DNA of 24,000 nucleotides from an uncultured Acidobacteriota bacterium (GTDB lineage: Bacteria > Actinomycetota > Acidimicrobiia > Spongiisociales > ZC4RG35), in contig CAWJLJ010000014.1 of assembly GCA_963843585.1 (NCBI GenBank), positions 51,299-75,298 of the forward strand. The letters run 5' to 3'. The translations under genes and the position numbers were made by a program. This document shows, one piece after another, positions 5,294-23,922 of this stretch; position 1 is the first letter of the stretch; every line of letters begins with the position of its first letter. A model generated the notes under the pieces. It was not told where the DNA came from. It ran no database searches and saw nothing but the letters and a program-made list of their open reading frames with translations.

Positions 5294-5295
5294 CC

Positions 5296-9766: not shown

Positions 9767-9955
9767 AACGCCCTGGTCAAGGGTGTGAAACCCGGATCCC
9801 TCATTTCTCGCGCGAATTGCCTTGGAGTCGCCGCGTGCCACGGGGACTATCCGCAGCGGCCGCTGCGGTCAACGCGAACCGTCTGGTGAGTCTCTTATCC
9901 GACACCGCTGGGGCGTCTCGGGCATCCGACAGGCAGCCATAACGCTACAGCGAAT

Positions 9956-9983
9956 CATCCGTCCCCCCCGTCTGGTCCGAAGT
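9956..9983 (+). promoter_or_regulatory. Candidate ECF (SigK-like) promoter upstream of the fasciclin lipoprotein gene: CATCC-N17-CGAAGT
   Basis: CATCC at 9956-9960, a 17-nt spacer, and CGAAGT at 9978-9983, 41 nt before ATG 10025. It has the same architecture as the sites at 11183, 14462(-), 17110(-), 17122 and 23633(-). Confidence 0.45.
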
Positions 9984-10678: not shown

Positions 10679-10697
10679 GCGACACGCCGTTCCGCAA

Positions 10698-10734
10698 GAA
10701 CAACGGGCCGCGCTCTGAGCGCGGCCCGTTGTTC
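10698..10734 (+). terminator. Strong hairpin terminator after the fasciclin gene
   Basis: GAACAACGGGCCGCGC-tctga-GCGCGGCCCGTTGTTC is a perfect 16-bp stem, 20 nt after the stop. There is no long U-tract. Confidence 0.7.
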
Positions 10735-10798
10735 GCGTGGATGCAGACGACGGATTGCTGGCTCCCCGCGATGGACGCGCGATAGAAACTTCGGACGG

Positions 10799-11049
10799 GA
10801 GAGTGCCGAGAGGGTCACTGCCTTCTCGGGTTCGATGCCTTCGTCTACATCAACGTCATCTGGTTCGGCTGCTGGATCGGCTTCGGCATAGAGAACTACC
10901 CCTACGGTCTCTTGACCATGGTCGTCTCGCTCGAAGCGATCTTCCTCTCCACCTTTGTCCTGATCTCAAACGCGCGAAGTGCCTGCTCAGAAGCCATTCT
11001 CGGTTCCAGTCATTTCACGTTGTTGACCGTTGCATGCGGTCCGCGGTGA
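10799..11049 (+). pseudogene. DUF1003-like membrane protein remnant (frameshifted, no start codon, degenerate C-terminus)
   Basis: One frame gives NFGRESAERVTAFSGSM, and the next gives AFVYINVIWFGCWIGFGIENYPYGLLTMVVSLEAIFLSTFVLIS, the DUF1003 core that is normally followed by QNRQ. The frames join through a missing G at atg(g)cc near 10837. The tracked 120-aa ORF 10737-11099 is in the wrong frame. Confidence 0.45.
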
Positions 11050-11182
11050 TAGATCCGATGGCAGACGGGCCAGCCTGCAAGCTCCAATCGGTCTTTTGAC
11101 TCCCCGGCATCGCGAACCGACAGCCTTCAAGTGACCTCCACGTCTCAGGAATCACGGTTCTCGAGCGATCCGATGCTCTCGA

Positions 11183-11210
11183 CATCCGATCGGACCGGGC
11201 GCAACGAACA
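11183..11210 (+). promoter_or_regulatory. Candidate ECF (SigK-like) promoter of the heliorhodopsin operon: CATCC-N17-CGAACA, 6 nt from the ATG
   Basis: CATCC at 11183-11187, a 17-nt spacer, CGAACA at 11205-11210, then acgtgc and ATG 11217. There is no SD sequence, which fits a leaderless transcript. Confidence 0.55.
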
Positions 11211-11216
11211 ACGTGC

Positions 11217-11996
11217 ATGACGACAACGACAGAGACCATCGTCACGCCCCGGGCCGGTGATCGTCTCCGTGCCTACAACGTCGGCATGGGCGCGCTCCAC
11301 GCCATCCAGGCCTTCTTGGTCCTTTGGCTGGCCAACGGATTCACGCTCCCGGTGATCGCCACATACATGGCGGGGCCTCCTGGCTCCGCTCCGCCCGCGG
11401 TGACACCCCTCTTCGAGGTGAGCATTGCCTGGGGCGTGGCAATTTTCTTGTTCATGTCCGCCGTGGCCCACTTCCTCATCGCCTCGCCCGGCATCTACCA
11501 GTTGTATCGCCAGAACCTGAATCGCCAGCGCAACTATGCCCGTTGGATCGAGTACTCCCTCTCGTCATCGGTCATGGTGGTACTGATCGCCCTTCTGACC
11601 GGGATCGCCGACATCGCAGCCCTGCTTGCCATTGCCGGAGTCAATGCATCGATGATCCTGTTCGGCCTTCTCCAGGAGAAATATGAGACACCAGGCAAGG
11701 CGGTCGGCTGGCTGCCCTTCTGGTTCGGAGTTCTGGCCGGGGCTATTCCTTGGATCGCTATCGCCTGGTACCTGTTCAGCCCCGGCTTCGATTCGAACCC
11801 TCCCGGGTTCGTGTACGGGATCTTCTTCTCCCTCTTTGTCTTCTTCAACGTGTTCGCGGTCGTCATGGTCCTGCAGTACAAGCAGGTCGGTCGGTGGGCG
11901 GACTACAGCTTCGGGGAATCGACCTACATCCTGCTCAGCCTGGTGGCCAAGTCGGCCCTGGCGTGGCAGGTATTCGGAGGAACACTGGCGACATGA
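11217..11996 (+). CDS. Heliorhodopsin (seven-TM retinal protein)
   Basis: 259 aa, collinear with the prototype heliorhodopsin 48C12 as I recall it. Shared segments are RWIEYSLSSSVMVVLIA, GIADIAALLAIAGVNASMILFGLLQEKY, LPFWFG...IPWI, PGFVYGI and YILLSLVAKSALAWQVFGGTL. The Schiff-base Lys (K245), counter-ion Glu (E112) and conserved His (H28, H85) are all present. Confidence 0.92.
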   Translation: MTTTTETIVTPRAGDRLRAYNVGMGALHAIQAFLVLWLANGFTLPVIATYMAGPPGSAPPAVTPLFEVSIAWGVAIFLFMSAVAHFLIASPGIYQLYRQNLNRQRNYARWIEYSLSSSVMVVLIALLTGIADIAALLAIAGVNASMILFGLLQEKYETPGKAVGWLPFWFGVLAGAIPWIAIAWYLFSPGFDSNPPGFVYGIFFSLFVFFNVFAVVMVLQYKQVGRWADYSFGESTYILLSLVAKSALAWQVFGGTLAT

Positions 11997-12466
11997 GACA
12001 AACCACAGGAACCGAAAGACCGGCAGATCACAAGGCGGTCCGCCTCATCGAGCAGAGATGGGTGGAGCGAGCCCAGGACGAAGCATTCATCTACACCGCC
12101 GATTTCTCCAACATCGAGGACTGGGATCCAGGTGTGGTCTCCTCTCGGGGGCTCGGCCATGGGCCCGTCGGTGTCGGCTCGCAATTCGAGCTGGAGGTCG
12201 AGTTCGGCAGTGGCACGATGCCGATGGTCTACGAGATCACGGAATACGAGCCCAGCGATCGGGTAGTCCTGGTCGGCCGGGGTGACAAGCTCGGCGCGGT
12301 CGACGAGATCCGCTTCTCACGGCACGACAACATGACCGTGATCGACTACACCGCCGACCTCACCTTCCTCAACTGGTACAGGCACATCACCCGCTTGATG
12401 GGACCAAGCCTGAAGAAGGTCGGGACCAAGGCTCTCGACGGCCTCGCGGCCGAGCTGGACAGATGA
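11993..12466 (+). CDS. SRPBCC (START/polyketide-cyclase-like) ligand-binding protein
   Basis: 157 aa. Its ATG overlaps the heliorhodopsin stop as ATGA (11993-11996). The size and pattern are typical of SRPBCC (FSNIEDWDPGV..., GSQFELEVEFGSG..., YEITEYEPSDRVVL). Confidence 0.75.
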   Translation: MRQTTGTERPADHKAVRLIEQRWVERAQDEAFIYTADFSNIEDWDPGVVSSRGLGHGPVGVGSQFELEVEFGSGTMPMVYEITEYEPSDRVVLVGRGDKLGAVDEIRFSRHDNMTVIDYTADLTFLNWYRHITRLMGPSLKKVGTKALDGLAAELDR

Positions 12467-13398
12467 ACAAGTTGGGCATCGCATCCTTCACGAACTTGGG
12501 CTACCGGCTCCACTCCCGCCGGTTCTCCCCGGTCGAGGCCGACATGACCGGCAAGACCGTCGTGGTGACGGGATCCACCGGAGGCCTCGGGCTCGAATCA
12601 GCCCGCTCCCTGTCGAGACTGGGAGCCCGGGTGGTGATCGTCGGCCGGAACGAGCAAAAGCTGGCTTCTGCGGCTGAGAGCATCGAGGGCGAGGTGATGG
12701 CGCAGCAGGCCGACCTCAGTCTGCTGGCGGAGGTCCGGCTGCTCTCCGACCGGCTCATCGAGTCAACCCCGAGGATCGACGTCCTGATCAACAACGTGGG
12801 CGTCCTCATGCCCGAGCGCACGGAGACGGACGAGGGCTTGGAGATGTCCTTCGCCACCAATCTCGCCGGCCACTTCCTACTTACCAACCTCCTGCTTCCC
12901 CGACTTGCCGAGTCGAGGCCGGCCAGGGTCATCAACGTGAGCTCCGGCGGCATGTACGCCGCCCGGATCGATCCCACCGACCTCCAGTTCATGCGGCGCC
13001 GCTACACGGGCAAGGCCGCCTATGCCAGCAGCAAGCGGGGGCAGGTCATCCTCACAGAGATGTGGGCCGAGCGCTTCCCGGGACGGAACGTGGTCTTCCA
13101 TTCGATGCACCCGGGTTGGGCCAAGACCGCCGGGGTGGCCGAGTCCTTGCCCGCTTTCAACACAGTGATGCAGCCGCTGTTGCGCACCCCGGCCGAGGGG
13201 GCCGACACCATCATCTGGCTCGCTGTGGCAGAGGAGCCCCGACGTGGGTCTGGCGGGTTCTGGTTCGACCGAGAGGAGGCGCCGACTCATCTCACTGATT
13301 CCACCCAGGAAACAGCGGCGGACCGGGCAGAGCTGTGGACTGAGTTGGCCCGAGTGACCGGGTCCGATCTCCCGGTTGGCACCGCCCACCGGGACTAG
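12463..13398 (+). CDS. Classical short-chain dehydrogenase/reductase, retinol-dehydrogenase / DHRS-like subgroup
   Basis: Its ATG overlaps the previous stop as ATGA (12463-12466). It has TGSTGGLG (the TGxxxGxG NAD(P) motif), NNVG, Ser (VSSGG) and YASSK (YxxxK). The architecture, including the ~27-aa N-terminal extension, resembles RDH11-14/DHRS12-type enzymes. Confidence 0.88.
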   Translation: MNKLGIASFTNLGYRLHSRRFSPVEADMTGKTVVVTGSTGGLGLESARSLSRLGARVVIVGRNEQKLASAAESIEGEVMAQQADLSLLAEVRLLSDRLIESTPRIDVLINNVGVLMPERTETDEGLEMSFATNLAGHFLLTNLLLPRLAESRPARVINVSSGGMYAARIDPTDLQFMRRRYTGKAAYASSKRGQVILTEMWAERFPGRNVVFHSMHPGWAKTAGVAESLPAFNTVMQPLLRTPAEGADTIIWLAVAEEPRRGSGGFWFDREEAPTHLTDSTQETAADRAELWTELARVTGSDLPVGTAHRD

Positions 13399-13432
13399 GC
13401 CGGGTGCGTCGCGACCACATCAGCGAGAGAAC

Positions 13433-14425
13433 TCAGTGGTTAGCGGCCTCCGAACCGGTCACCCAAGCATCGACATCGGCCCACAGGTCGAATAGCCATC
13501 GCAGCCTGGACTTGTTGTCATTGGGAATGGCGCTCCGCGGAACCCGCCAGAACCTCATCTCGACCGTGGTTCCGACCAGGCCGCCCGACCACATGTCCTT
13601 GACCCGGGCAAAGCCCTCCAAACCGCGATGGGCGAGGACGACCACGTCGGCCGCGCTCGCGTCGAGAAGAGCCAGCGTGCCACCCGGCTTCGGGGGAAGC
13701 ACCCGCCGGAAGCCGGCAGCGATCTCCCCGATAGGCCCGCCCTCGTCCACCCAGCGGCGGCTGTACCTGACCCGCTTCTCCTCGCTGTATCGAGTGCCTT
13801 CCGGGTAGATGAGGACGCCCTCATCCGCTGCGAGATTGGTGGCGAGCTCCCTAAGGGCAGCCATCTCGGCCTGCGCCGATCCCCTTCGGTCGATGAAGTA
13901 GTTAGGGAGTCGGTTGCCACCGATGTCCAACGCGGGGTCGATCAAGAGTTCCTTCTTCAGGACGTAGCGCAGCTTGATCCCGTGAGGCTTGACCACGTAG
14001 CGACCGGGGAGCATCGTGTCGATCAGCGACGCGTGGCGGGATAGAAGGAGTATCGGCCCAGGCGGGATGGCGGACATCCCCTCGTCGATGAAGGTCAGGC
14101 CGAAGCTCATCCGCAAGGCGTCGAAGTTCCAGTCGAGCCAGACCTGTTGCGCCCGGTAAGTCCAGTCGATCACCCTGTGCCTGGGAAGCAACCCGACGAT
14201 CGCCAGGGCGAGGATGGCCCAAGCCTCGCCAAGCAGGTAGTACCAGGCGAAAGCGCCCGTCCGCAGCGCCATCGCCGGCGTACGCGCATTCACCCATCGA
14301 GCAGCATCGACCAACGCCCCGAGGGGCAGAAGGATCGGGAGCAGGGTCGTGAACAACACGAGACCCGCATATACGGCCGAGATCGTGATCAGCCGCCTGG
14401 TTGTGTTGGCCAGCAATGATCCCAT
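13433..14425 (-). CDS. PlsC-family (lyso)phospholipid acyltransferase, membrane-anchored
   Basis: 330 aa with N-terminal TM helices, the HX4D motif (SRHASLID) and the EGTR motif (IYPEGTRY). Confidence 0.85.
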   Translation of the reverse strand: MGSLLANTTRRLITISAVYAGLVLFTTLLPILLPLGALVDAARWVNARTPAMALRTGAFAWYYLLGEAWAILALAIVGLLPRHRVIDWTYRAQQVWLDWNFDALRMSFGLTFIDEGMSAIPPGPILLLSRHASLIDTMLPGRYVVKPHGIKLRYVLKKELLIDPALDIGGNRLPNYFIDRRGSAQAEMAALRELATNLAADEGVLIYPEGTRYSEEKRVRYSRRWVDEGGPIGEIAAGFRRVLPPKPGGTLALLDASAADVVVLAHRGLEGFARVKDMWSGGLVGTTVEMRFWRVPRSAIPNDNKSRLRWLFDLWADVDAWVTGSEAANH

Positions 14426-14433
14426 CCGCTGTC

Positions 14434-14462
14434 AATTCGGCGCCGAACAACTAACTGGATGG
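14434..14462 (-). promoter_or_regulatory. Candidate ECF (SigK-like) promoter of the acyltransferase gene: CCATCC-N17-CGAATT, 8 nt from the ATG
   Basis: The minus strand reads CCATCC-agttagttgttcggcgc-CGAATT-gacagcgg-ATG. It contains the 12-bp perfect palindrome TTCGGCGCCGAA. Confidence 0.6.
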
Positions 14463-14512
14463 CTTCTTCGCTCAGCAGGCTCCGGAATCAAGTCGCTCCA
14501 GACGCTGTTTGA

Positions 14513-15721
14513 GTGCAGCTGATGCCGTCCACCATCTTCGTCATCTGGTTTGGAGCCGCCTTTGTTCTGACGGTCAACGCCCTGCGCCGCCCGGTGCAAC
14601 CAGGGAAGGGGATCCCACCCCCGTGGCTGCCCGCCATGATCGTCTCTGAGCTGGCGCCGTGGCTCCTCCTCGTGAGGATGTTGGGAGTCGTGGCGTTCAT
14701 CTGGATCGGGGTCCTGGAGTCGGCGGCAGGCCAGGTGGGGCTGGCGCTCTTCATCCTGTCCGAGCTGGGTTTGCTGATCTTGATCGGGCGAACGCTCGCC
14801 TCCGCCCGCGCCACCGGCCACAACCCCTCCTCGTGGTCACTGTTTCGGATCTGGGACCCCCTGCCCGAGGGAGTCATTGTGATTCCGGAAGTGCACTATT
14901 GGGATGGCCTGACCCTCGATATCTACCGGCGCGCGGAGTCGACTGCGGCGCCCGCCTTGATCTATGTCCACCCGGGCTCTTGGATGAGAGGGCGCCCTGG
15001 GCGCCAGGCCAGGGCGATGTTCCATCTTCTTGCCGTCTCCGGATGGGTGGTCCTCGATATCCGCTACCCACTCTCACCCGCAGCGACGTTCCCGGAGCAT
15101 CTCATCGGCGTGAAACGTGCCATTGCATGGGCCAGGACTGGAGGTGGCGAATACGGGATCGACCCCAATCTGGTCGGCATCTCGGGCGGCTCGTCGGGCG
15201 CCCATCTTGCTGCCCTCGCCGCGCTCACCTGGGACCGGACAGAGCTTCAGCCCGGCTTCGAGGACGCGGATACCAGCGTCATCGGATGCGTGCCCTTCTA
15301 CGGGATCTACGACCTGCTGGTGAGGAACCCGACACGGTTCGACTGGCCCTTCATCGCGCGGTACGTTCTCAAGGCCGACAAGCAAGAGGCCCCAGACCTC
15401 TATCGACTGGGATCGCCCATCGATCAGGCCCGCGGTGACACGCCCCCCTTCCTCGTGATCCACGGAGAGTTCGACTCCGTCGTCCTACCGGAGGAATCAC
15501 GCCACTTTGTGGCCGCCCTCGAGAGGGTCGGGGGGCGAGTCGAGTATCACGAGATCCTGGGAGCCCAGCATGGCTTCGATGCCGTGGCATCGCTGCGCTC
15601 CAGAGCCGTGGGGCGAATGGCCGCCGAGTGGCTCGGAGGGATCGTGTCGGAGATATCCAATAGAGGTCATCCGTCTCCAGAAGCGACTCTGAATGCAACG
15701 CCGGAGGCCCATCAGGCCTGA
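14513..15721 (+). CDS. Membrane-anchored alpha/beta-hydrolase (esterase/lipase, fold-3 / ICME-like)
   Basis: About 4 N-terminal TM helices, then LDIYRR..PALIYVHPGSW, the nucleophile elbow GGSSG, and the Asp/His candidates HGEFDSVV and GAQHGFD. The start may be GTG 14513 or ATG 14522. Confidence 0.85.
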   Translation: MQLMPSTIFVIWFGAAFVLTVNALRRPVQPGKGIPPPWLPAMIVSELAPWLLLVRMLGVVAFIWIGVLESAAGQVGLALFILSELGLLILIGRTLASARATGHNPSSWSLFRIWDPLPEGVIVIPEVHYWDGLTLDIYRRAESTAAPALIYVHPGSWMRGRPGRQARAMFHLLAVSGWVVLDIRYPLSPAATFPEHLIGVKRAIAWARTGGGEYGIDPNLVGISGGSSGAHLAALAALTWDRTELQPGFEDADTSVIGCVPFYGIYDLLVRNPTRFDWPFIARYVLKADKQEAPDLYRLGSPIDQARGDTPPFLVIHGEFDSVVLPEESRHFVAALERVGGRVEYHEILGAQHGFDAVASLRSRAVGRMAAEWLGGIVSEISNRGHPSPEATLNATPEAHQA

Positions 15722-16443
15722 GTGGCCACCGCCACGACATCGCCTTCACTGATGACCACTCCGCCGGCAACCTCCCGGGTCAGGGCGAACCCCGAAACGT
15801 CACCGGTCCACGTGAAGGTCGAGGCGCGAGGCTCGTTGCCTAGTACGCCACCGGAAATCACCTGCTCGTCGGTGGTGATCACCCACAGCTGATAGGTGCG
15901 CTGAGGCATCAGGGGCTCGAGATCCTCGGTGGGAACGACGAAGCCGTGGCCATCCTCGGTGAGAATCACCTGCGCAACGGAGGAGCCGTCGACCAGGAAA
16001 TCGCCGACGTAGGCACCGCTGCTGGAGGCCGCTTGCTCGGCCGCGGCGATCACTGCCGAGTCGCCCGTCAGATCGTGGAGTAACGACCTCTGAGCCAGGG
16101 CTATACCGGCGAAGACAAGGGCGGCCACGGCGGCGATTGCGGTCAGCAAGGTCACAGCTCTGGTTCTCCGTGGCTGCCCTTCTTCGAGATCGATGACCTC
16201 GGCGGCCCGGCCGAGTGGGATGTCCGCCCCGTTTCCGATAGCCGAGGCGATCCTGTCCCATCCATGGGTCGGCGTGGGTTCGTCCGGGACCAATTTCGAC
16301 GTCACGGCCGAGTACCGGGCCAGTTCGCGAAGACAGGCGTCACATGAGTGGAGGTGAGTCATCACCGCCTGGAGCTCATTCCCCTCCAGGCTGTCGAGGG
16401 CATAGAGCGGGACCAGTTCGTGGAGGAGGCTGTGGTTCGTCAT
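15712..16443 (-). CDS. rskA: Anti-sigma factor, RskA-like, with an N-terminal zinc-binding (ZAS) HxxxCxxC motif
   Basis: Its start overlaps the sigma gene stop as ATGA. It has H-LHS-C-DA-C (ZAS motif), one central TM helix (LLTAIAAVAALVFAGIALA), and an extracytoplasmic RskA-type domain (RTYQLWVITTDEQVISGGVL). Confidence 0.82.
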   Translation of the reverse strand: MTNHSLLHELVPLYALDSLEGNELQAVMTHLHSCDACLRELARYSAVTSKLVPDEPTPTHGWDRIASAIGNGADIPLGRAAEVIDLEEGQPRRTRAVTLLTAIAAVAALVFAGIALAQRSLLHDLTGDSAVIAAAEQAASSSGAYVGDFLVDGSSVAQVILTEDGHGFVVPTEDLEPLMPQRTYQLWVITTDEQVISGGVLGNEPRASTFTWTGDVSGFALTREVAGGVVISEGDVVAVATQA

Positions 16444-16988
16444 GCTGTCGCTCCCGACAGCGAGACCGCCAGCTTCTTCATGCCGCTGCGGATTCGGCTC
16501 TTCACAGTTCCCTCGGGCTCGCCCAGCCTCTTGGCCACCTCCACGTAGCTGAGCCCACCGAAATAGGCCAGAGAGATCGCCTCCCGTTCGCTTTCGGCGA
16601 GATCGTCGAGGGCCTTGCGCACCAACTCGGACAGGTTCCGGGTCCAGACCTCGTCAGCGACGTCGTAATGATCCGGATCTGGCGGCTTCTCTTCCCTACG
16701 GGCTCGGGCCACCTCGGATCTCACAATGTCCACTGCCCTGCGATGAGCGATGGTGAGCAGGAAGGTGCGCAATGAGCCGCGCCCGGGGTCGTACTTCTCC
16801 GGCGCGTTCCAGAAACCCACGAACGTGTCCTGCACGACATCATCTGCCAAAGCCTCGTCTCTCAACACCCGGAGAGCGATGGCCTTGACTGCGCCGCCGT
16901 ACTGCTGGAAGAGAGCTTCGAGCGCGGATTGGTCGCGGCTGGCAACTCTCTCCGCAAGAAGGGCATCCGGGGTGTTCGAGTCGCTCAT
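16440..16988 (-). CDS. sigK: ECF sigma-70 family factor, SigK-like
   Basis: Region 2 is DDVVQDTFVGFW and region 4 is LAYFGGLSYVEVAKRLGEPEGTVKSRIRSGMKKL. It is co-transcribed with the rskA-like gene. The preferred start is ATG 16988 (MSDSNTPD...). An upstream in-frame ATG at 17072 lies 10 nt after the candidate -10 and could be a leaderless start. Confidence 0.85.
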   Translation of the reverse strand: MSDSNTPDALLAERVASRDQSALEALFQQYGGAVKAIALRVLRDEALADDVVQDTFVGFWNAPEKYDPGRGSLRTFLLTIAHRRAVDIVRSEVARARREEKPPDPDHYDVADEVWTRNLSELVRKALDDLAESEREAISLAYFGGLSYVEVAKRLGEPEGTVKSRIRSGMKKLAVSLSGATA

Positions 16989-17082
16989 CGACCTGCCGGC
17001 GGACACATGAACCGGGGATGTTAGGTAGGCCCCATTCCGGTAACGCCCTGGCTGCAAGCGAGCTGACTCCATCTACAACACC

Positions 17083-17110
17083 TATTCGTCACCGCCCCGA
17101 GCCCTGGATG
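17083..17110 (-). promoter_or_regulatory. Candidate autoregulatory ECF promoter of sigK-rskA: CATCC-N17-CGAATA
   Basis: The minus strand reads tCATCC-agggctcggggcggtga-CGAATA. It lies back-to-back with the plus-strand copy at 17122-17150, with the two -35 elements 11 nt apart. Confidence 0.6.
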
Positions 17111-17121
17111 AGACAGCCGAC

Positions 17122-17150
17122 CCATCCGGTCTGCTGTTCGGCGACGAATA
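17122..17150 (+). promoter_or_regulatory. Candidate ECF promoter of the oxidoreductase-DUF1365-CFA synthase operon: CCATCC-N17-CGAATA, 6 nt from the ATG
   Basis: CCATCC-ggtctgctgttcggcga-CGAATA-cgcggc-ATG(17157). There is no SD, and it shares GTTCGGCG(A/C)CGAAT with the sites at 14434 and 23605. Confidence 0.62.
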
Positions 17151-17156
17151 CGCGGC

Positions 17157-18467
17157 ATGGGACAGAGAATCGCGATCGTCGGAACGGGCATCTCCGGTCT
17201 CGGCGCCGCCTGGGCCTTGCATCGGGACAATGACATCACGGTCTTCGAGGCGGACAATCGGATAGGCGGCCATTCGAATACCGTCGATGTCGAGACCCCC
17301 GATGGTCCTCTGGCGGTCGACACCGGATTCATCGTTTACAACGAGGTCACCTACCCCAACCTGACCCGCCTCTTCTCGTCGCTCGGCGTATCCACCGAAA
17401 TGAGTGACATGTCGTTTGCCTTCTCCCTGGACCGCCAGTTCGAGTACGGGGCGAGCCTGAGTGGGGTTTTGGCCGAGCCGGGCAACCTCCTCAGCCCGAG
17501 GTTCCTCCGGATGCTTCGAGACATAAGTCGATTCCGCCGCATCGGGACCATGCTGGAGCCGGCGGGCGACGAGAACATCGGCGAACTCCTCGAACGGTAC
17601 GGCTTCTCCCAAGGCTTCCTCGATGACTACCTCTACCCCATGACCGGTGCGATCTGGTCGGCTCAGCGATCGAATATCAGCATGTTCCCCGCTGCGTCGA
17701 TTCTCCGCTTTCTGGCCAACCACGGATTGATCGAGATCGTGGGGCGGCCCAGGTGGCGGACTGTGACCGGTGGGAGCCGGAGCTATGTCAATCGACTTGT
17801 GAGGCCCTTTGCCGACCGAATCAGAACGAACTCGCCCGTGAATCGCATCGTCCGCCTCGGCGGTGAGGTGCTGGTCGAGTCCAATGGGCAGACGCAGTCG
17901 TTCGAACAGATCATCTTCGCCACCCACCCCGATCAGGCTCTGGCCATCCTCGGTGAGGACGCCACCGATACCGAGGGCGCCGTACTCGGTGCCATGCGGT
18001 ATGAGTCGAACGTCGCCGTCCTCCATAGCGACTCGAGCCTGATGCCCCGGAACCGCAGGGTTTGGTCCAGCTGGAATGCGATGGCGGAGGAAGCCGGCCG
18101 CCGTCACCAGGTGGCCTCGGTGACCTACTGGATGAACCGCCTCCAGAACCTCAACCCCTCGTACCCCTTGTTCGTCTCCCTCAATCCGTTGCGGGAGCCG
18201 GATCCAGGCCAGGTTCACGCTCGTTTCGCATACGCCCACCCACAGTTCGATCTCGAATCGGTGGCGGCACAACAGGGTCTCGCCGCGATCCAGGGCCTGA
18301 GCAACACCTGGTTCGCCGGGGCCTACCTCGGCTACGGCTTCCACGAGGACGGGCTCCAGTCAGGTCTCAACGTGGCAGCGGCCCTCGGCTCCCCGGTGCC
18401 ATGGCACGGCACTTTCGAACCAGTTAGCTCGGCCCCGTCCTTCACGGGGAGGGTGGTGGTCCCTTGA
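17157..18467 (+). CDS. FAD/NAD(P)-binding amine-oxidase-family oxidoreductase (Rv0449c-like)
   Basis: 436 aa with an N-terminal Rossmann motif RIAIVGTGISGLGAAW...VFEA..RIGGH. The size and context match the flavin oxidoreductase that accompanies DUF1365 and CFA-synthase genes. Confidence 0.85.
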   Translation: MGQRIAIVGTGISGLGAAWALHRDNDITVFEADNRIGGHSNTVDVETPDGPLAVDTGFIVYNEVTYPNLTRLFSSLGVSTEMSDMSFAFSLDRQFEYGASLSGVLAEPGNLLSPRFLRMLRDISRFRRIGTMLEPAGDENIGELLERYGFSQGFLDDYLYPMTGAIWSAQRSNISMFPAASILRFLANHGLIEIVGRPRWRTVTGGSRSYVNRLVRPFADRIRTNSPVNRIVRLGGEVLVESNGQTQSFEQIIFATHPDQALAILGEDATDTEGAVLGAMRYESNVAVLHSDSSLMPRNRRVWSSWNAMAEEAGRRHQVASVTYWMNRLQNLNPSYPLFVSLNPLREPDPGQVHARFAYAHPQFDLESVAAQQGLAAIQGLSNTWFAGAYLGYGFHEDGLQSGLNVAAALGSPVPWHGTFEPVSSAPSFTGRVVVP

Positions 18468-19246
18468 GGCCGTTACGGTCTGCCCTCTACCAGGGCCGGG
18501 TGCGCCACACCCGGCTCCAGCCCTTTCATCACGATTTCGAGTACCGGGTCTTCTACGGGCTATTCGATATCGACGAGCTCGACTACCTCGACCGGGGACT
18601 CAGGCTCTTCTCAGTCGGAAGACGCAACCTGGCGAGCTTCTACCCCCAGGACCATGGCCCCGTCGACGGGAGCTCTCTTCGAGCCTGGGCCGAAGACGTC
18701 CTCGCAGAGGCGGGTGTCGACATCGACGGCGGAAGGATCGAGCTGCTCGCCTTCCCCCGGATCCTCGGCTACGCCTTCAACCCGTTGAGCGTCTGGTACT
18801 GCTACGGGAGCGAAGGCAATCTCAAAGGAGTCCTCCACGAGGTGCGGAACACGTTCGGTGACCGCCACGTGTACGTGGTGCCCGTCAATGATGAGACGGC
18901 GTACCGACACAGCTTCGCCAAGGCGATGCACGTATCCCCTTTCAATCCGATGGAGCAGACCTACCACTTCACGGTCAACCGGCCCGGGAAGCGGCTTCAA
19001 GTGGCGATCGAGCAGACCGACGAAAGGGGCAAGGTGTTCCGGGCGGGGATGAGGCTCTCACGGATTCCCTTGACCGACCGCAATCTGCTCAGGGTCTTCT
19101 TCACTCACCCCCTGGTGACGATGAAGGTCATCGCAGGGATCCACTGGCAAGCCCTGCGGCTCTGGCTCAAGGGCGCCACCTATCGGAAACGCCCTCGGCC
19201 CCCCGCCGATAGCATCACGATCGTGGACCCGAGCATGGTCGGATGA
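18464..19246 (+). CDS. DUF1365-family protein
   Basis: 260 aa. Its TTG start overlaps the previous stop as TTGA. The motifs SALYQGRVRHTR..P..H.F.YRVFY and FPRILGYAFNPLSVWYCY are typical of DUF1365. Confidence 0.8.
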   Translation: MRPLRSALYQGRVRHTRLQPFHHDFEYRVFYGLFDIDELDYLDRGLRLFSVGRRNLASFYPQDHGPVDGSSLRAWAEDVLAEAGVDIDGGRIELLAFPRILGYAFNPLSVWYCYGSEGNLKGVLHEVRNTFGDRHVYVVPVNDETAYRHSFAKAMHVSPFNPMEQTYHFTVNRPGKRLQVAIEQTDERGKVFRAGMRLSRIPLTDRNLLRVFFTHPLVTMKVIAGIHWQALRLWLKGATYRKRPRPPADSITIVDPSMVG

Positions 19247-20409
19247 AGGCCCGGGAGCGGCTAGGTCTCCGCGTCTTCTCCTGGCTGGCACGTGCAGGGA
19301 GCATCCAGGTGACGCTTCCCACCGGGGAGACGGTATCGATCGGCCACGGGTCGCCCGGCGCCGACGTCGAGATCACGGACTATTCGGCCGTGGCCGACAT
19401 CCTCCGCACCGGCCTCACCGGATTCGCGGAGGCGCATATGGACGGGCGGATCGAGACCTCGGACCTTCCCGCCCTGCTCCGCTGGGGCGTAGCCAACCAA
19501 GCCGCCTGGTTCGAGCACCCCCTGGCCCGTCTGACGCTGCCCTTCCGGAGGCTGTGGCAGCGGATCCGTCCCGAGAGACGGCACCCGCGAGTGCGAAGCA
19601 TGAACGATCATTACAACCTCGGAAACGACTTCTACGAGAAGTGGCTCGACGAAACGATGACCTACTCCTCCGCCCGTTTCCTCGACCCCGACCAACCGCT
19701 GTCGGGAGCCCAGATGAACAAGTACCGGCTGATCGCGGACAAGGCTGGCTTGGCGCCCGGGATGCGGGTACTCGAGATCGGATGCGGTTGGGGAGGATTC
19801 GCCGAATACGCAGCCTCGGAAAGAGGCTGTGAGGTCACCGCAATCACCTTATCCAAGGAGCAGGCGTCCTACGCCGAGAAGCGGATCGCCGAGCGCGGCC
19901 TGGCCGACAAGGTCGAGATCCGGCTCGCCGACTTCAGGGACATCACCGGCGAATTTGACGCAGTCGTCTCCATCGAGATGATCGAATCGGTCGACGAGAC
20001 CCATTGGCCGGCCCTGTTCGAGATGATCGCCGACCGCCTCAAGCCAGAGGCGCGGGCTGCGATGCAGATCATCACGATCAGAGACGACGAGTGGGAGCGC
20101 TACCGATCCAGGGCCGACTTCATACAGCAGTACATCTTCCCCGGGGGACAGATCCCGGCGCCCAAGGTCCTCAAGGCGTTCGCCGGCAAGGCCCGTCTGG
20201 ACGTGGAGCAAATCGAGACCTTCGGCCTCGACTACGCGCGAACCCTGGCGGCTTGGCGGGACCGCTTCCTGGAGGCGTGGCCGGTGCTCCAGGTTGAACA
20301 CGACCTCGACGAGCGTTTCCGCCGCATGTGGGAGCTGTACCTCGCCCTTTGCGAGGCGGGGTTCCGCATGGGGCGGATCAACGTCGAGCAGTGGGTATTC
20401 GCCCGCTGA
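19243..20409 (+). CDS. Cyclopropane-fatty-acyl-phospholipid synthase-family SAM-dependent methyltransferase
   Basis: Its ATG overlaps the previous stop as ATGA. It has HYNLGNDFYEKWLDETMTYSSA, the SAM motif VLEIGCGWGGFA, DAVVSIEMIE, FIQQYIFPGG and YLALCEAGF. Confidence 0.88.
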   Translation: MKARERLGLRVFSWLARAGSIQVTLPTGETVSIGHGSPGADVEITDYSAVADILRTGLTGFAEAHMDGRIETSDLPALLRWGVANQAAWFEHPLARLTLPFRRLWQRIRPERRHPRVRSMNDHYNLGNDFYEKWLDETMTYSSARFLDPDQPLSGAQMNKYRLIADKAGLAPGMRVLEIGCGWGGFAEYAASERGCEVTAITLSKEQASYAEKRIAERGLADKVEIRLADFRDITGEFDAVVSIEMIESVDETHWPALFEMIADRLKPEARAAMQIITIRDDEWERYRSRADFIQQYIFPGGQIPAPKVLKAFAGKARLDVEQIETFGLDYARTLAAWRDRFLEAWPVLQVEHDLDERFRRMWELYLALCEAGFRMGRINVEQWVFAR

Positions 20410-20453
20410 TAGATCTCCTCCGGCTCCTTCGCCCAGGTTCCTGACCCGGATCT

Positions 20454-20481
20454 CATCTGAATCACTCGACCGCTCCGAAGC
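20454..20481 (+). promoter_or_regulatory. Weaker match to the ECF motif: CATCT-N17-CGAAGC, upstream of the 20535 gene
   Basis: tCATCT-gaatcactcgaccgctc-CGAAGC, 53 nt before ATG 20535, which has its own SD gaaggag. There is one mismatch in the -35 and the -10 is degenerate. Confidence 0.3.
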
Positions 20482-20534
20482 ACGGGTGAAGCAAGCGACC
20501 ACTCAAGACGGTCGTAAGACAGAAGGAGATCTAA

Positions 20535-20939
20535 ATGCGCAAGCTGATGCTTCTCATGGCCGTGATGGTGGTGGCGATACTGCCGGCCACGGCCGCAATG
20601 GCCCAGTCGGACGAGGGTCAGGTCATCGTGGTTCACGGTGTTCCCGATCTGGACGTCGACGTGTACGTCAACGGTGAGCTCACCCTCGAGGGCTTTCAGT
20701 TCGGCGATGTAGCCGGTCCGCTGGACCTGCCCGCCGGCACCTACGAGATCGAGATATTCGCCGCCCTCTACCCGAAGGAAGAGCTGCCCCTGGACGCTAT
20801 CTTCTCCAAGGAGGGGCCTCCGGTGCTGACACTCATTACGTGCGGCGGCGGCTTTGATCCAGGCGTCGCTCGCTACGACAGCAACGTCGTCGTCTACGCC
20901 ACGCCAGCTGTCGACCTCCCGGCTTCTTTGATCGGGTGA
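20535..20939 (+). CDS. Secreted chimeric protein: signal peptide plus DUF4397-like N-terminal half fused to a sortase (class F-like) C-terminal tail
   Basis: Signal peptide MRKLMLLMAVMVVAILPATAAMA. The segment VIVVHGVPDLDVDVYVNG...LPAGTYEIEI is DUF4397-like. The segment LPLDAIFSKEGPPVLTLITCGGGFDPGVARYDSNVVVYATP is a sortase C-terminus with the TLxTC Cys and a downstream Arg, but there is no His-bearing sortase core. Confidence 0.6.
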   Translation: MRKLMLLMAVMVVAILPATAAMAQSDEGQVIVVHGVPDLDVDVYVNGELTLEGFQFGDVAGPLDLPAGTYEIEIFAALYPKEELPLDAIFSKEGPPVLTLITCGGGFDPGVARYDSNVVVYATPAVDLPASLIG

Positions 20940-21985
20940 TGGTGTCCTTCTCACGCTCGACCACAGGTAGCCTCCACGCTTTCGTAACGGAGCGAAAAGT
21001 GGATGAAAGCAGCCTCAGATCTGCGCGGCTCGGAGTCACCGCGGCCGCCCTTTCGGGGGACTCCGGCGGGCTCTACAACATCGTTGCCCGCCTCATGGAT
21101 GAGGGGGTTCCTCTCGACTCGCTGCTCTTCGACCTCCTCCTTCCCACTGAAAGAGATGTCGGATCGCGATGGCAAAGCGGGGATTACCTGGTCTCGGAGG
21201 AACACACCGCGACGGCCACAGTCGAGACCGTCGTCGCGCTCCTTGCGGGGTCGTTGGACCAACCAGAGGACGGCCTCCATGTCGTGGTTGCCTCAGCTGA
21301 AGGCGACTCTCACTCCTTGGCAGGCCGGGCCGTGGTCGCCTATCTACTCTTCAGCGGATTCCGGACCACCTTCCTCGGCGCCAACGTGCTCGCAACCGAC
21401 CTGCGGGAGTTCCTCGCCAGCGAGCAGCCCGACGCGATGATCATCTCCTGCACGATGACCAACCATCTCATCGGAGCCAGGGCAGTGATCAGCCAGAGCC
21501 ACTCCGCAGACGTGCCTGTACTCGCGGGAGGGCGGGCGTTCGGCGGGACCGGGGCGTGGGCGACCACGCTCGGAGCCGACGCCTGGGCGTCGCACCCGAG
21601 AGAGATCCCAGGCGTCCTACAGACCTGGGTGCCAGACGTAAGAGCGTCCGAGAGCCGGGCTCGTAACCCTTCGGACGACCTGCTGAAGCTGATCGAACGA
21701 CGCACCTCGGTTCTCGCTCGAGCACAGGAGGATCTGGAGCGACGTCTCGGAGAAACGCCTGGCCCCCGCCTGCGAGACGAGCTCGCCCTGCTTCTCGGCG
21801 CTGTCGAAGCGTCTTTGCTGGTAGGCGACAACGAGGTGGTCGTCGAGGCTCTCAAGTGGCAAAGAGCGACCCTCCAGGCCCACGGGCACGGCGACTCGGG
21901 CCCACTGACGGAGGCCGTCATTGCAGGCTTGCAGCCGGTATCCCTCGAAGCCGCCGAGGCTCTTCGCTCCGCCCTGTCCAGTTAG
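20936..21985 (+). CDS. Stand-alone cobalamin (B12)-binding protein, CarH/AerR-like, lacking a DNA-binding domain
   Basis: A four-helix-bundle region carries W79-x9-E89-H90 (RWQSGDYLVSEEH). A Rossmann-like B12-binding domain carries DSHSLA (the DxHxxG-type lower-ligand His126) and VLAGG. A ~130-aa helical C-terminal extension follows. The start is uncertain: GTG 20936 or ATG 20939 (coupled to the upstream stop), or GTG 20999 with ggag upstream. Confidence 0.75.
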   Translation: MMVSFSRSTTGSLHAFVTERKVDESSLRSARLGVTAAALSGDSGGLYNIVARLMDEGVPLDSLLFDLLLPTERDVGSRWQSGDYLVSEEHTATATVETVVALLAGSLDQPEDGLHVVVASAEGDSHSLAGRAVVAYLLFSGFRTTFLGANVLATDLREFLASEQPDAMIISCTMTNHLIGARAVISQSHSADVPVLAGGRAFGGTGAWATTLGADAWASHPREIPGVLQTWVPDVRASESRARNPSDDLLKLIERRTSVLARAQEDLERRLGETPGPRLRDELALLLGAVEASLLVGDNEVVVEALKWQRATLQAHGHGDSGPLTEAVIAGLQPVSLEAAEALRSALSS

Positions 21986-21994
21986 ACGCCGGTC

Positions 21995-22028
21995 GGAGCG
22001 GGGGGTGGGTCACGCCCCACTCCGCTCC
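21995..22028. terminator. Imperfect GC-rich hairpin between convergent genes
   Basis: GGAGCGG..GTGGG-tcacgc-CCCAC.CCGCTCC lies between the 21985 stop and the 22064 stop. Confidence 0.4.
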
Positions 22029-22063
22029 GTGGCGAGCGAATCCCCAGCCCGACGGGCAACCTC

Positions 22064-23596
22064 TTAGATCGGTGGCTTCGGGCGTCGGCCGGCCACCTCG
22101 ACAATGCGACGGGCCATCGGGCCGAAAACCATCGAATGGAACGGCCAGAGCAGATACCAGTAGAGGCGACCTGCCAGTCCGCGTGGGGCGAAGTGAGCGG
22201 TCTGGATCAGACTGGTATGGCCACTCTTGCTTTCGACTTCAAACTCGAGCCAGGCCTCGCCAGGCAATCTCATCTCGGCGACCAGCAGGAGGCGTCGGTT
22301 GTCTTCGAGGTCGGCCACCCGCCAGAAGTCGAGTGTGTCACCTCGCACCAAAGCAGTGCGGGGTCCCGCATTTCGCTGGAGGCCGACACCGCCCACCACA
22401 CGGTCGATCAGACCTCGAAACCACCAGGCCCAACCGGCGGCGTAGTAGCCAACTTCGCCTCCTATCCGTGTCACTGCCCAGTAGACGTCCGCTGCCGGAG
22501 CTGCCGTTTCCACCACCTTGCGGTCCCGCAGCCAGCGGGCACCGGCCCAGGCCGGATCGGTTGGCAGGCTCACCGCCGGTTGCTCCACAGCCTCGTGCCA
22601 TCGGGTTTCATCGGTGTTCCCCTCCACCCTTTCCAGGGCGTCAGAAACGGCCTCGCGATACGGGCTGAGGGGACGCTCGACAAACTCTGTTGCCGCGTTC
22701 TCGGTGACAACGACCTCGGTGATGAGGCTGTCTATGAGGGTGCGCGCGATTCGGGTGGGCACTGCGGTGACGAGACCCACCCATCGAGAGGAGAGCGAGG
22801 GGGAGAACATCGGCACTGGCAAGATCAGGCGGTGCCGAAGACCGGCCTCTTCGGCGTAGATCTGCATCATGTCCCTGTAGGTGAGAACGTCGGGACCGCC
22901 CACCTCCAGCATCTGATGATCGGCCAGGTCGTGATCGAGCAGTCCGACAAGAACTGCCAATACATCCCTGGCAGCGATGGGCTGGCATCGAGTCTGAACC
23001 CAACGAGGCGTGATCATCACTGGAAGCACCTCGGTCAGATGTCGAAGCATTTCGAACGAGACCGAGCCCGACCCGATGATCACTGCCGCCCTGACCTCAC
23101 TGAGTGCGATCGGACCGGCGGCGAGAACCCGACCTACCTCTTGACGGCTGGCCAGATGGCCGGAGAGGTTGGTCGAGCCTCCCAGACCACCCATGTAGAT
23201 GATCCTCTGCACGCCCTGACGTTCCGCCGCCCGACGGAAGTTCTCGGCGGCTTGACGGTCACGGGTGGCAAACCCCTCGCCGCCGTCCATCGAGTGAATC
23301 AGGTAGTAGGCGGTGTCAATCCCCTCCAGAGCGGCGTCCAACGATGCCCGCTCCAGAGCATCCGCCACCGCCACCTCCACCTGCTTATGCCAGGGGTGGC
23401 CGCTGAGACCCTCGGCGCTCCGCACCATGCAACGCACCTGATAGCCCGCCGCCAGGAGTTGGGGCACCAGGCGGCCCCCCAGGTAGCCACTGGCTCCGGT
23501 CACCAGCAATGTGGATCCGGAAGTGCGTGCGGGGTCAGCCGACGATGGCTCCGCTGATGCCCTCTCGTACTGTTGCAAAGCATCCTCGTTCGTCAT
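22064..23596 (-). CDS. Atypical SDR / NmrA-like NAD(P)-binding domain fused to a DUF2867 domain
   Basis: 510 aa with LLVTGASGYLGGRL (Rossmann fold) and an extended-SDR-like N-terminal half. The C-terminal ~150 aa (WRVADLE...LLLVAEMRLPGEAWLEFEV...) are typical of DUF2867. Confidence 0.82.
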   Translation of the reverse strand: MTNEDALQQYERASAEPSSADPARTSGSTLLVTGASGYLGGRLVPQLLAAGYQVRCMVRSAEGLSGHPWHKQVEVAVADALERASLDAALEGIDTAYYLIHSMDGGEGFATRDRQAAENFRRAAERQGVQRIIYMGGLGGSTNLSGHLASRQEVGRVLAAGPIALSEVRAAVIIGSGSVSFEMLRHLTEVLPVMITPRWVQTRCQPIAARDVLAVLVGLLDHDLADHQMLEVGGPDVLTYRDMMQIYAEEAGLRHRLILPVPMFSPSLSSRWVGLVTAVPTRIARTLIDSLITEVVVTENAATEFVERPLSPYREAVSDALERVEGNTDETRWHEAVEQPAVSLPTDPAWAGARWLRDRKVVETAAPAADVYWAVTRIGGEVGYYAAGWAWWFRGLIDRVVGGVGLQRNAGPRTALVRGDTLDFWRVADLEDNRRLLLVAEMRLPGEAWLEFEVESKSGHTSLIQTAHFAPRGLAGRLYWYLLWPFHSMVFGPMARRIVEVAGRRPKPPI

Positions 23597-23604
23597 CCAC
23601 TAGT

Positions 23605-23633
23605 GATTCGGCGCCGAACCTTGTCGTGGATTG
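23605..23633 (-). promoter_or_regulatory. Candidate ECF promoter of the SDR-DUF2867 gene: CAATCC-N17-CGAATC, 8 nt from the ATG
   Basis: The minus strand reads CAATCC-acgacaaggttcggcgc-CGAATC-actagtgg-ATG(23596). It shares the 14-mer ATTCGGCGCCGAAC with the acyltransferase promoter. Confidence 0.55.
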
Positions 23634-23781
23634 CATCTGGTCGACCGACAGGTTCGCTGTCTGGTACTGGCCGCGGACTATGCCTCTTCATCGGTCCGCC
23701 GAAGCGGGCCGAGATGGCGGTTGATCTCGCCTGGTTCCAGCGTGACCTGCGGTGGGCGGCAACCCGGCCTGGTCTTGAGGG

Positions 23782-23922
23782 TCGGCGCCCTCGGCAGGAT
23801 TCGAACCTGCGACACCCGGTTTAGGAAACCTGCTCTGTATTTGGGCCTCCCAACACCCGAAAACGCCAATAAACATAGGGTTTTCGCGTTCTCTAAGGTT
23901 GGCGCGTTCCGGTGCTCAGTTT
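23782..23922 (-). repeat. 141-bp repeat copy 3 containing the tRNA-Arg(CCU)-like element (minus strand, about 23786-23864)
   Basis: A direct repeat of 5153-5293 with about 7 differences. Three of them are pairing-preserving changes in one hairpin. Confidence 0.8.

What the first reader, a model, noticed from the sequence alone, without database searches (positions are those of the whole stretch)
14435..23619. The -10 region of three of the promoters is embedded in a 12-14 bp palindrome (ATTCGGCGCCGAAC)
**Observations:**
- The identical 14-mer ATTCGGCGCCGAAC occurs at 14435-14448 (acyltransferase promoter) and at 23606-23619 (SDR-DUF2867 promoter).
- Its core, TTCGGCGCCGAA, is a perfect palindrome.
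- The oxidoreductase operon promoter carries TTCGGCGACGAA (17137-17148), with one mismatch.

**Interpretation:**
- ECF promoters do not normally conserve spacer sequence.
- A dyad that overlaps the -10 suggests an extra dimeric regulator (repressor or anti-activator) acting on a subset of the regulon.
- Alternatively it could be an unusually extended -10 recognition element.
Basis: seen in the sequence. Interest (0 to 1): 0.6.

Follow-up and report, generated by a model that had tools for sequence, protein, structure and literature searches.

The report
Two-way ECF sigma promoters sharing one core
The palindrome is most likely not a repressor site: it is where two copies of the same alternative-sigma promoter lie on opposite strands and drive two divergent genes from one 37-bp symmetric sequence.

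Summary
ATTCGGCGCCGAAC is at 14435-14448 and 23606-23619, and TTCGGCGACGAA is at 17137-17148 (3 matches against 0.12 expected).

A -35 box (CATCC) therefore sits on each strand, 16 or 17 bp from a CGAAY -10 on the same strand. Both sites lie at divergent positions.

This dyad occurs at 9 sites in 301 related Acidimicrobiia genomes; the reversed control pattern gave 0. It recurs between acyltransferase/hydrolase, acyltransferase/FabH and other divergent gene pairs.

In 24 one-way promoters of the same SigK-like regulon, the bases before CGAA are already conserved as C-G-G-Y-n-M. This extended -10 is self-complementary in its inner 8 bp. Laying it on both strands gives the 12-mer, and allows only G-Y-R-C in the centre, as observed.

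The third site is a one-way promoter that matches this consensus. Its first two T's are not rare at those positions.

Distant orthologous promoters keep only ATCC and CGAA. The island encodes no DNA-binding regulator other than the sigma factor.

Verdict: a bidirectional ECF promoter with an extended -10, a new variant of the symmetric bidirectional promoters known for sigma-70. No transcription data were available.

The parts
14422..14462 (.). Site 1: 41-bp dyad-symmetric bidirectional promoter between the acyltransferase gene (minus strand) and the BD-FAE hydrolase gene (plus strand).
   Evidence: Sequence is CCATCC-N8-TTCGGCGCCGAA-N9-GGATGG. In orthologs the boxes and the core are conserved while the spacers vary.
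14422..14448 (+). Site 1, plus-strand promoter: -35 CCATCC 14422-14427, 16-bp spacer, -10 CGAAC 14444-14448. It faces the hydrolase gene, whose likely start is ATG 14522.
   Evidence: The hydrolase, or a FabH-hydrolase pair, is the conserved divergent partner.
14435..14462 (-). Site 1, minus-strand promoter: -35 CCATCC (reverse complement of 14457-14462), 17-bp spacer, -10 CGAAT (reverse complement of 14435-14439), then 9 nt to ATG 14425 of the acyltransferase. There is no room for a Shine-Dalgarno sequence.
23593..23633 (.). Site 3: 41-bp dyad, TCATCC-N8-TTCGGCGCCGAA-N9-GGATTG, about 160 bp from the right-hand island repeat.
23606..23633 (-). Site 3, minus-strand promoter: -35 CAATCC (reverse complement of 23628-23633), 17-bp spacer, -10 CGAAT (reverse complement of 23606-23610), then 9 nt to ATG 23596 of SDR-DUF2867.
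   Evidence: A second copy in genome G003 has a perfect CCATCC box.
23593..23619 (+). Site 3, plus-strand promoter-like half: -35 TCATCC 23593-23598, 16-bp spacer, -10 CGAAC 23615-23619. No protein gene follows within about 300 bp; it points at the island end.
17122..17149 (+). Site 2: one-way promoter of the amine oxidase-DUF1365-CFA synthase operon. -35 CCATCC 17122-17127, 17-bp spacer, -10 CGAAT 17145-17149, then 7 nt to ATG 17157. The near-palindrome is at 17137-17148. No -35 box is found on the other strand at a usable spacing.
17084..17111 (-). The sigK gene's own promoter: TCATCC-N17-CGAAT, then 11 nt to ATG 17072. It is not palindromic (GGCGGTGA-CGAAT).
11183..11209 (+). Heliorhodopsin promoter: CATCC-N17-CGAAC, then 7 nt to ATG 11217. 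It is not palindromic.
9955..9982 (+). Promoter of the fasciclin (Mpt70/83-like) gene: TCATCC-N17-CGAAG, about 42 nt before ATG 10025.
15712..17072 (-). SigK-like ECF sigma gene (16440-17072) and RskA-type anti-sigma gene (15712-16443). The sigma factor is the factor inferred to read all these promoters.

Best explanation
The 12-14-bp palindrome is the shared core of a symmetric, bidirectional promoter read by the SigK-like ECF sigma factor encoded in the window.

In this group of Acidimicrobiia the promoter is (C)ATCC, a 16-17-bp spacer, and an extended -10 of the form C-G-G-Y-n-(A/C)-CGAA-(T/C). The start codon often follows 7-11 nt after the -10, so the transcripts are leaderless or nearly so.

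The inner 8 bp of the extended -10 (CGGCGCCG) are self-complementary. At sites 1 and 3 two such promoters are laid on opposite strands around one dyad axis:
- Each CGAA supplies the TTCG found 5-8 bp upstream of the other strand's CGAA.
- The four centre bases can then only be G-Y-R-C.
- A -35 box flanks the core on each side.
- The GGATG form of one -35 box supplies the ATG of the divergent leaderless gene.

RNA polymerase carrying the same sigma factor can bind in either orientation. The two bound states overlap completely, so they should exclude each other. The result would be co-induced divergent transcription with start sites roughly 26-30 bp apart.

Site 2 is an ordinary one-way promoter. 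It fits the extended consensus and happens to have TT at -8 and -7.

Shown here: the sequence architecture, its recurrence and its conservation. Inferred: sigma dependence, the positions of the start sites, and activity in both directions.
For: 1. Both perfect palindromes carry ATCC 8 bp to the left and GGAT 9 bp to the right. Each strand therefore reads ATCC-N16/17-CGAAY. The chance of ATCC at either spacing is about 0.6% per site.

2. The full dyad pattern ATCC-N8/9-TTCG-N4-CGAA-N8/9-GGAT gave 9 sites in 301 genomes of the order. The same pattern read backwards gave 0.

3. The dyad sits between divergent genes:
- acyltransferase | hydrolase in G000 and G234;
- acyltransferase | FabH-hydrolase in G005, G090 and G011, and in G129 and G294 where one -35 box has a single mismatch;
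- acyltransferase | hydrolase in G377;
- two unknown ORFs in G079, both of which start at the ATG inside the other promoter's GGATG.

4. In acyltransferase orthologs found by protein search, not by motif, at 58-100% identity: ATCC and the 12-mer core are present in all eight promoters recovered, and GGAT in seven (L057 has TGAT). The outer spacers differ. The only centres seen are GCGC, GCAC and GTGC, which is G-Y-R-C.

5. 24 one-way promoters (sigK, amine oxidase, SDR, heliorhodopsin, fasciclin) have C at -6 (20/24), G at -5 (14/24), G at -4 (20/24), Y at -3 (20/24) and A/C at -1 (21/24). T is the commonest base at -8 (9/24). The consensus alone therefore accounts for 8-10 of the 12 palindrome positions, and it explains site 2.

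6. 7 of the 48 genome-wide matches to CATCC-N16/17-CGAAY fall in this 24-kb window. They lie in front of a SigK/RskA-type regulon: sigK-rskA, amine oxidase-DUF1365-CFA synthase, and a fasciclin gene resembling mpt70/83. PMC7509140 describes an mpt83-sigK-rskA cassette with conserved SigK sites.

7. Symmetric bidirectional promoters are established for sigma-70 (bioRxiv 10.1101/2020.01.31.928960).
Against: - No transcription data were available. The tool for finding sequencing runs was unavailable, so divergent start sites are not shown.
- The plus-strand half of site 3 has no protein gene within about 300 bp, here or in relatives.
- The SDR promoter of G398 has the core TTCGGCACCGAA without an opposite -35 box.
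- TTCG sits at the same position in 4 of 24 one-way promoters, including site 2. That is more than base composition alone predicts.
- The plus-strand halves use CGAAC with a 16-bp spacer. Both are minority forms among the one-way promoters.
- The one-way promoters are partly related to each other, so the column counts overstate independence.
- The conserved CGG...CCG could in principle also be read by a protein other than the polymerase.
Confidence: 0.66

Rival explanations
1. The palindrome is only an extended -10. It is simply the consensus CGGYnM-CGAA plus TT. The -35-like boxes on the other strand do nothing, at least at site 3, and transcription runs one way.
For: The extended consensus is present in one-way promoters. 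Site 2, G398 and G329 have the core or its arms without an opposite -35 box. The plus-strand half of site 3 has no target gene.
Against: ATCC at the right spacing on both sides occurs far more often than chance: 9 sites against 0 in the control. It is conserved in seven of the eight acyltransferase orthologs with a recovered promoter while the neighbouring spacers change. The hydrolase or FabH-hydrolase unit has no other upstream region that could hold a promoter.
Confidence: 0.17
2. A dimeric repressor or anti-activator binds TTCGGCGCCGAA and adds a second control layer to a subset of SigK promoters.
For: A perfect 12-bp palindrome overlaps the -10. The core is invariant in orthologs down to 58% protein identity. 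CGG...CCG is conserved in many promoters of the regulon.
Against: No intergenic copy exists outside SigK promoters in the genome. The island encodes no HTH regulator other than the sigma factor, and no HTH domain was detected in the B12-binding protein. Promoters of the same genes in more distant genomes keep only ATCC and CGAA. Conservation of the outer ATCC and GGAT boxes is not explained by a 12-bp operator.
Confidence: 0.12
3. The identity of the two 14-mers comes from chance, or from copying or gene conversion between promoters, and has no functional meaning.
For: The same 14-mer occurs twice within 9 kb on a mobile island bracketed by 144-nt repeats.
Against: The flanks of the two 14-mers are unrelated. 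The core is maintained across genera and in different gene contexts. The chance expectation is 0.12.
Confidence: 0.04

Closest known systems
Symmetric bidirectional promoters of housekeeping sigma-70 (Warman et al., bioRxiv 10.1101/2020.01.31.928960; NAR 2026, PMC12825309)
   Same: Promoter elements on opposite strands coincide because the motif has its own symmetry. One short sequence serves divergent genes. The two polymerase orientations exclude each other. Such promoters are enriched in horizontally acquired DNA, and the promoters here lie on an island.
   Different: In those promoters the AT-rich TATAAT hexamers overlap and the start sites are most often 18 bp apart; no -35 symmetry is described in the text read. 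Here an ECF sigma factor is inferred. The two GC-rich -10 elements lie 4 bp apart. Both -35 boxes are mirrored. The predicted start sites are about 26-30 bp apart. The -35 box of one promoter contains the start codon of the other leaderless gene. Nothing here has been tested experimentally.
SigK/RskA (ECF19) regulon and SigK binding sites of Mycobacterium and other Actinobacteria (Veyrier et al. 2008, as cited in PMC7509140)
   Same: A sigK-rskA pair lies next to amine oxidase, DUF1365 and cyclopropane-fatty-acid synthase genes, with a fasciclin (mpt83-like) gene nearby. The motif stands in front of sigK itself. Conserved SigK sites are reported across Actinobacteria.
   Different: The sigma factor here scores below NCBIfam's SigK cut-off (164.8 against 226 bits). 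The regulon is extended with heliorhodopsin, SDR-DUF2867 and lipid enzymes. I could not read the 2008 paper, so I could not compare its published consensus or check whether it mentions dyad symmetry.
Operators overlapping the -10 that are bound by dimeric repressors
   Same: A perfect palindrome covers the -10 element.
   Different: No cognate regulator gene was found, and no sites occur outside the sigma factor's own promoters. The symmetry extends to the -35 boxes, 37 bp apart, which a 12-bp operator does not explain.

Membership tests
SigK/ECF19-type promoter | A cognate SigK-family ECF sigma gene paired with an RskA-type anti-sigma gene at the locus. | tested here: inconclusive
   Pfam finds Sigma70_r2/r4 and RskA_C/RskA_N. 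The best NCBIfam hit is SigK NF007228, E 1.8e-48, but 164.8 bits is below the 226-bit cut-off.
SigK/ECF19-type promoter | The motif stands in front of the sigma gene itself (autoregulation) and in front of conserved regulon genes (fasciclin/mpt83-like, amine oxidase-DUF1365-CFA synthase). | tested here: met
   TCATCC-N17-CGAAT lies 11 nt before the sigK ATG. The same motif was found in 11 of 30 orthologous sigK upstream regions, at amine oxidase genes and at the fasciclin gene.
SigK/ECF19-type promoter | Transcription depends on SigK. | not testable with these tools
   No expression data; the tool for finding sequencing runs was unavailable.
Symmetric bidirectional promoter (prokaryotic) | Core promoter elements are present on both strands around one dyad axis. 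| tested here: met
   ATCC-N8-TTCGGCGCCGAA-N9-GGAT at both sites. 9 sites against 0 in the control across 301 genomes.
Symmetric bidirectional promoter (prokaryotic) | Divergent transcription start sites at a short fixed distance (7-25 bp in the defining E. coli study; more divergent starts also seen at 29 bp). | not testable with these tools
   The geometry predicts about 26-30 bp. No 5'-end data.
Symmetric bidirectional promoter (prokaryotic) | Overlapping sigma-70 -10 hexamers (TATAAT symmetry). | tested here: not met
   The elements are CGAAY pentamers of an ECF-type promoter, 4 bp apart, with mirrored -35 boxes. This is why I call it a variant and not a member.
Operator of a dimeric repressor | The palindrome is conserved independently of the promoter elements, also occurs at other regulated sites, and a cognate regulator gene is linked. 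| tested here: not met
   The left half goes together with an opposite -35 box. Distant orthologs lose it. No other intergenic copies exist. The island has no HTH gene.

The most novel reading that the evidence does not exclude
This is a compact 37-41-bp 'two-way' ECF promoter module. One alternative sigma factor fires in both directions from a self-complementary extended -10. Each -35 box (CCATCC, read as GGATGG on the other strand) also encodes the start codon of the divergent leaderless mRNA. Promoter, start site and start codon of two genes would then be packed into one dyad. The module travels on a mobile island that carries light- and oxidative-stress genes.
Probability: 0.45. Interest if true: 0.55.

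Novelty: new variant of a known kind. Interest (0 to 1): 0.45.

Why it matters
Bidirectional promoters have so far been worked out for the housekeeping sigma factor. Here symmetry of the motif may produce the same behaviour for an ECF sigma factor, with both -35 and -10 mirrored.

If that is confirmed:
- The two divergent units (acyltransferase against hydrolase, or against FabH-hydrolase) are co-induced but compete for one polymerase binding event. That is a simple way to fix their ratio.
- It gives a natural template for very small two-output ECF promoters in synthetic circuits.
- It warns that palindromes overlapping ECF -10 elements should not be read as operators by default.
- It defines an extended -10 (CGGYnM-CGAAY) for SigK-like factors of Acidimicrobiia. 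That sharpens regulon prediction for a gene set that includes a heliorhodopsin operon.

Tried and rejected
- **Veyrier 2008.** I tried to read it for the published SigK consensus (PMC2258859). It is not held. The other SigK papers I read give no motif.
- **SDR-DUF2867 orthologs** at 43-58% identity mostly have other upstream sequences. Only G020 and G009 were informative.
- **One-sided pattern search** (ATCC-N8/9-TTCGGYRCCGAA). It returned 22 one-sided hits. Most lie inside long open frames that encode F-G-A/T-E and were discarded as coding coincidences.
- **Phylum-level amine oxidase promoters**. They keep ATCC and CGAA only, so the extended -10 is particular to this lineage.
- **Target for the plus-strand half of site 3.** I found only spurious ORFs and a weak tRNA-like fragment.
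- **Recent duplication** was rejected because the flanks differ.
- **Cruciform or hairpin function** was rejected: the stem would be too short, and the sequence lies upstream of the transcript.
- **The B12-binding protein as the palindrome binder** was set aside because no HTH domain was detected in it.
Full report
**1. The observation**

One search finds TTCGGCGCCGAA at 14436-14447 and 23607-23618, and TTCGGCGACGAA at 17137-17148. That is 3 matches against 0.12 expected from shuffles. The 14-mer ATTCGGCGCCGAAC is identical at 14435-14448 and 23606-23619, but the flanks differ.

In the whole 3.4-Mb, 65% G+C genome there are five perfect 12-mers. The three outside the window lie in open frames of 204 to 651 codons, and two of them read F-G-A-E. 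The only intergenic copies are therefore the two in this window.

**2. Setting**

Record titles of near-identical loci place the window in an Acidimicrobiia metagenome-assembled genome. Coordinates 5150-23922 form an 18.6-kb block bracketed by 144-nt direct repeats that are 95% identical. A weak tRNA-like fragment lies near the right end.

The block encodes:
- an ECF sigma factor whose best NCBIfam hit is SigK (below the cut-off), with an RskA-type anti-sigma factor;
- the divergent amine oxidase-DUF1365-cyclopropane-fatty-acid synthase operon;
- a fasciclin protein resembling Mpt70/83;
- a heliorhodopsin;
- an acyltransferase, a BD-FAE hydrolase, a B12-binding protein in which Pfam found no HTH domain, and SDR-DUF2867.

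This matches the gene content of the mycobacterial sigK locus. PMC7509140 describes an mpt83-sigK-rskA cassette with conserved SigK binding sites.

The loose motif CATCC-N16/17-CGAAY has 48 matches in the genome. Seven of them are in this window, and each stands in front of a gene start. The fasciclin gene has the variant CGAAG.

**3.

At both perfect palindromes the symmetry goes further out:
- Site 1 reads CCATCC-N8-TTCGGCGCCGAA-N9-GGATGG (14422-14462).
- Site 3 reads TCATCC-N8-TTCGGCGCCGAA-N9-GGATTG (23593-23633).

Each strand therefore carries a complete promoter:
- On the minus strand: CCATCC or CAATCC, 17 bp, CGAAT, then 9 nt to the ATG of the acyltransferase (14425) or SDR-DUF2867 (23596).
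- On the plus strand: CCATCC or TCATCC, 16 bp, CGAAC.

The 14-mer is simply the reverse complement of CGAAT, then GCGC, then CGAAC. The plus-strand -35 box contains the CAT that is the start codon of the minus-strand gene.

**4. Is the two-sided architecture real?**

The pattern ATCC-N8/9-TTCG-N4-CGAA-N8/9-GGAT was found at 9 sites in 8 of 301 genomes of the order. The same pattern read backwards gave none.

The informative hits lie between divergent genes:
- acyltransferase | hydrolase (G000, G234);
- acyltransferase | FabH-like ketoacyl synthase followed by the hydrolase (G005, G090, G011; G129 and G294 have AGATGA in place of GGATGA);
- acyltransferase | hydrolase in G377;
- a pair of unknown ORFs of 292 and 204 aa in G079. 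Each of these starts at the ATG inside the GGATG of the other promoter's -35 box.

Three hits (G106, G134, G077) had no long ORF starting near the motif or sat in unclear contexts. I treat them as possible chance matches.

Acyltransferase orthologs found through the protein, not through the motif, span 58-100% identity. Eight of them showed a promoter. In these, ATCC and the 12-mer core are present in all eight and GGAT in seven (L057 has TGATGG). The 8-9-bp outer spacers differ freely. The centre is GCGC, GCAC or GTGC only.

**5. Why the centre is also palindromic: an extended -10**

I aligned 24 one-way promoters at their -10. The set comprised 11 sigK promoters, 8 amine oxidase promoters, 3 SDR promoters, and the heliorhodopsin and fasciclin promoters.

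| Position before CGAA | Commonest base(s) | Count of 24 |
|---|---|---|
| -8 | T | 9 |
| -7 | T or C | 8 each |
| -6 | C | 20 |
| -5 | G | 14 |
| -4 | G | 20 |
| -3 | C or T | 20 |
| -1 | A or C | 21 |

The promoter therefore has an extended -10, CGGYnM-CGAAY. Its inner eight bases in the consensus form (CGGCGCCG) are self-complementary.

If this element must be satisfied on both strands, the four centre bases can only be G-Y-R-C. That is what the acyltransferase orthologs show (section 4). G079 has GCGT, one position off the rule. The outer TT is the complement of the other strand's AA.

This also accounts for site 2. CGGCGA-CGAAT is the consensus, and TT at -8/-7 has a probability of about 0.12 given the column frequencies. 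No -35 box lies on the other strand there at a usable spacing. sigK, its divergent neighbour, has its own non-palindromic promoter at 17084-17111.

**6. Orthologous and distant promoters**

The amine oxidase promoter keeps ATCC-N17-CG(A/T)A-N, then 7 nt to the ATG or GTG start, in six genomes of the family. The TTCG half is present only in G000 and G329.

SDR promoters in G020 and G009 have ATCC-N17-CGAAT without a palindrome. Amine oxidase promoters sampled across the phylum keep only ATCC and CGAA.

It also shows that the extended -10 is particular to this lineage.

**7. Regulator hypothesis**

Pfam and NCBIfam scans of the island's genes find no HTH protein except the sigma factor. The Rrf2 gene (2606-3094) lies outside the island repeats. 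The 12-mer has no intergenic copy elsewhere in the genome.

A repressor cannot be excluded from sequence alone, but nothing calls for one.

**8. Weak points**

- No RNA data could be obtained, so activity in both directions is inferred.
- The plus-strand half of site 3 has no gene to serve, in this genome or in close relatives. It may be a by-product of symmetry, or it may make a non-coding transcript towards the island end.
- G398 has the core at its SDR promoter without an opposite -35 box.
- TTCG occurs in 4 of 24 one-way promoters. That is more than base composition predicts, so the left half may have some value of its own, or may be a relic of a two-way ancestor.
- The promoter sets contain related sequences, so the counts are not independent.

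**9. Comparison with known systems**

Symmetric bidirectional promoters are documented for sigma-70. There the -10 hexamers overlap and the start sites are most often 18 bp apart.

A full-text search for ECF sigma together with bidirectional promoter returned only cases of separate adjacent promoters, or unrelated uses of the term.

The present architecture is best called a new variant of that kind. It has mirrored -35 and -10 elements of an ECF promoter, -10 elements 4 bp apart, and a start codon embedded in the opposite -35 box.

**10. Verdict**

The extended -10 reading is partly right. The dimeric-regulator reading is not supported. The most likely explanation is a bidirectional SigK-type promoter (confidence about 0.66). 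Interest is moderate.

Noticed in passing
window 5150-5293 and 23779-23922: Two 144-nt direct repeats, 95% identical, bracket the whole sigma/heliorhodopsin block (18.6 kb). A weak tRNA-like fragment lies near the right-hand copy (Rfam tRNA, 20 bits, below threshold). This looks like an integrated mobile island with att-like ends.
   Followed up: partly
L049, L052 (two contigs of one MAG), L050, L051, L057: Acyltransferase loci 84-100% identical to the window occur in MAGs labelled Acidobacteriota as well as Acidimicrobiia, and twice in one MAG. The genome-search tool also places G234 (89% identical) in a different family from the window's genome. This suggests horizontal spread of the island, or binning mix-ups; the window's genome has 7% estimated contamination.
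   Followed up: no
window 14459-14512 (+): A 17-codon ORF starts at the ATG inside GGATGG, the opposite promoter's -35 box, and stops 1 nt before GVG... more exactly at TGA 14510-14512, just before GTG 14513 upstream of the hydrolase. Relatives keep it in frame with a 3-nt indel (16-17 codons). G377 has an apparent short ORF (about 22 codons by my estimate) at the same place. It may be a leaderless upstream ORF or just a by-product of the -35 box.
   Followed up: partly
window 14513-14524: The hydrolase probably starts at ATG 14522 (MPSTIFVIWFG...), not at GTG 14513. In relatives the conserved N-terminus begins at that ATG.
   Followed up: partly
window 10025-10678 (+), repeats 10100-10228: A fasciclin-domain protein (Mpt70/Mpt83-like) has a SigK-type promoter at 9955-9982. 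Its N-terminal region has four 24-nt tandem units.
   Followed up: partly
window 11183-11217: The heliorhodopsin gene has CATCC-N17-CGAAC, then 7 nt to its ATG. It would be a leaderless member of the same sigma regulon.
   Followed up: partly
G000 contig C26:5338-5859: The same genome holds a second SigK-like sigma gene, 42% identical. Its promoter specificity and its relation to this regulon are unknown.
   Followed up: no
L034 (G079:C21) 888-2415: Two divergent ORFs of 204 and 292 aa with no Pfam match. Both start at the ATG inside the other promoter's GGATG box. This is the most symmetric example found.
   Followed up: partly
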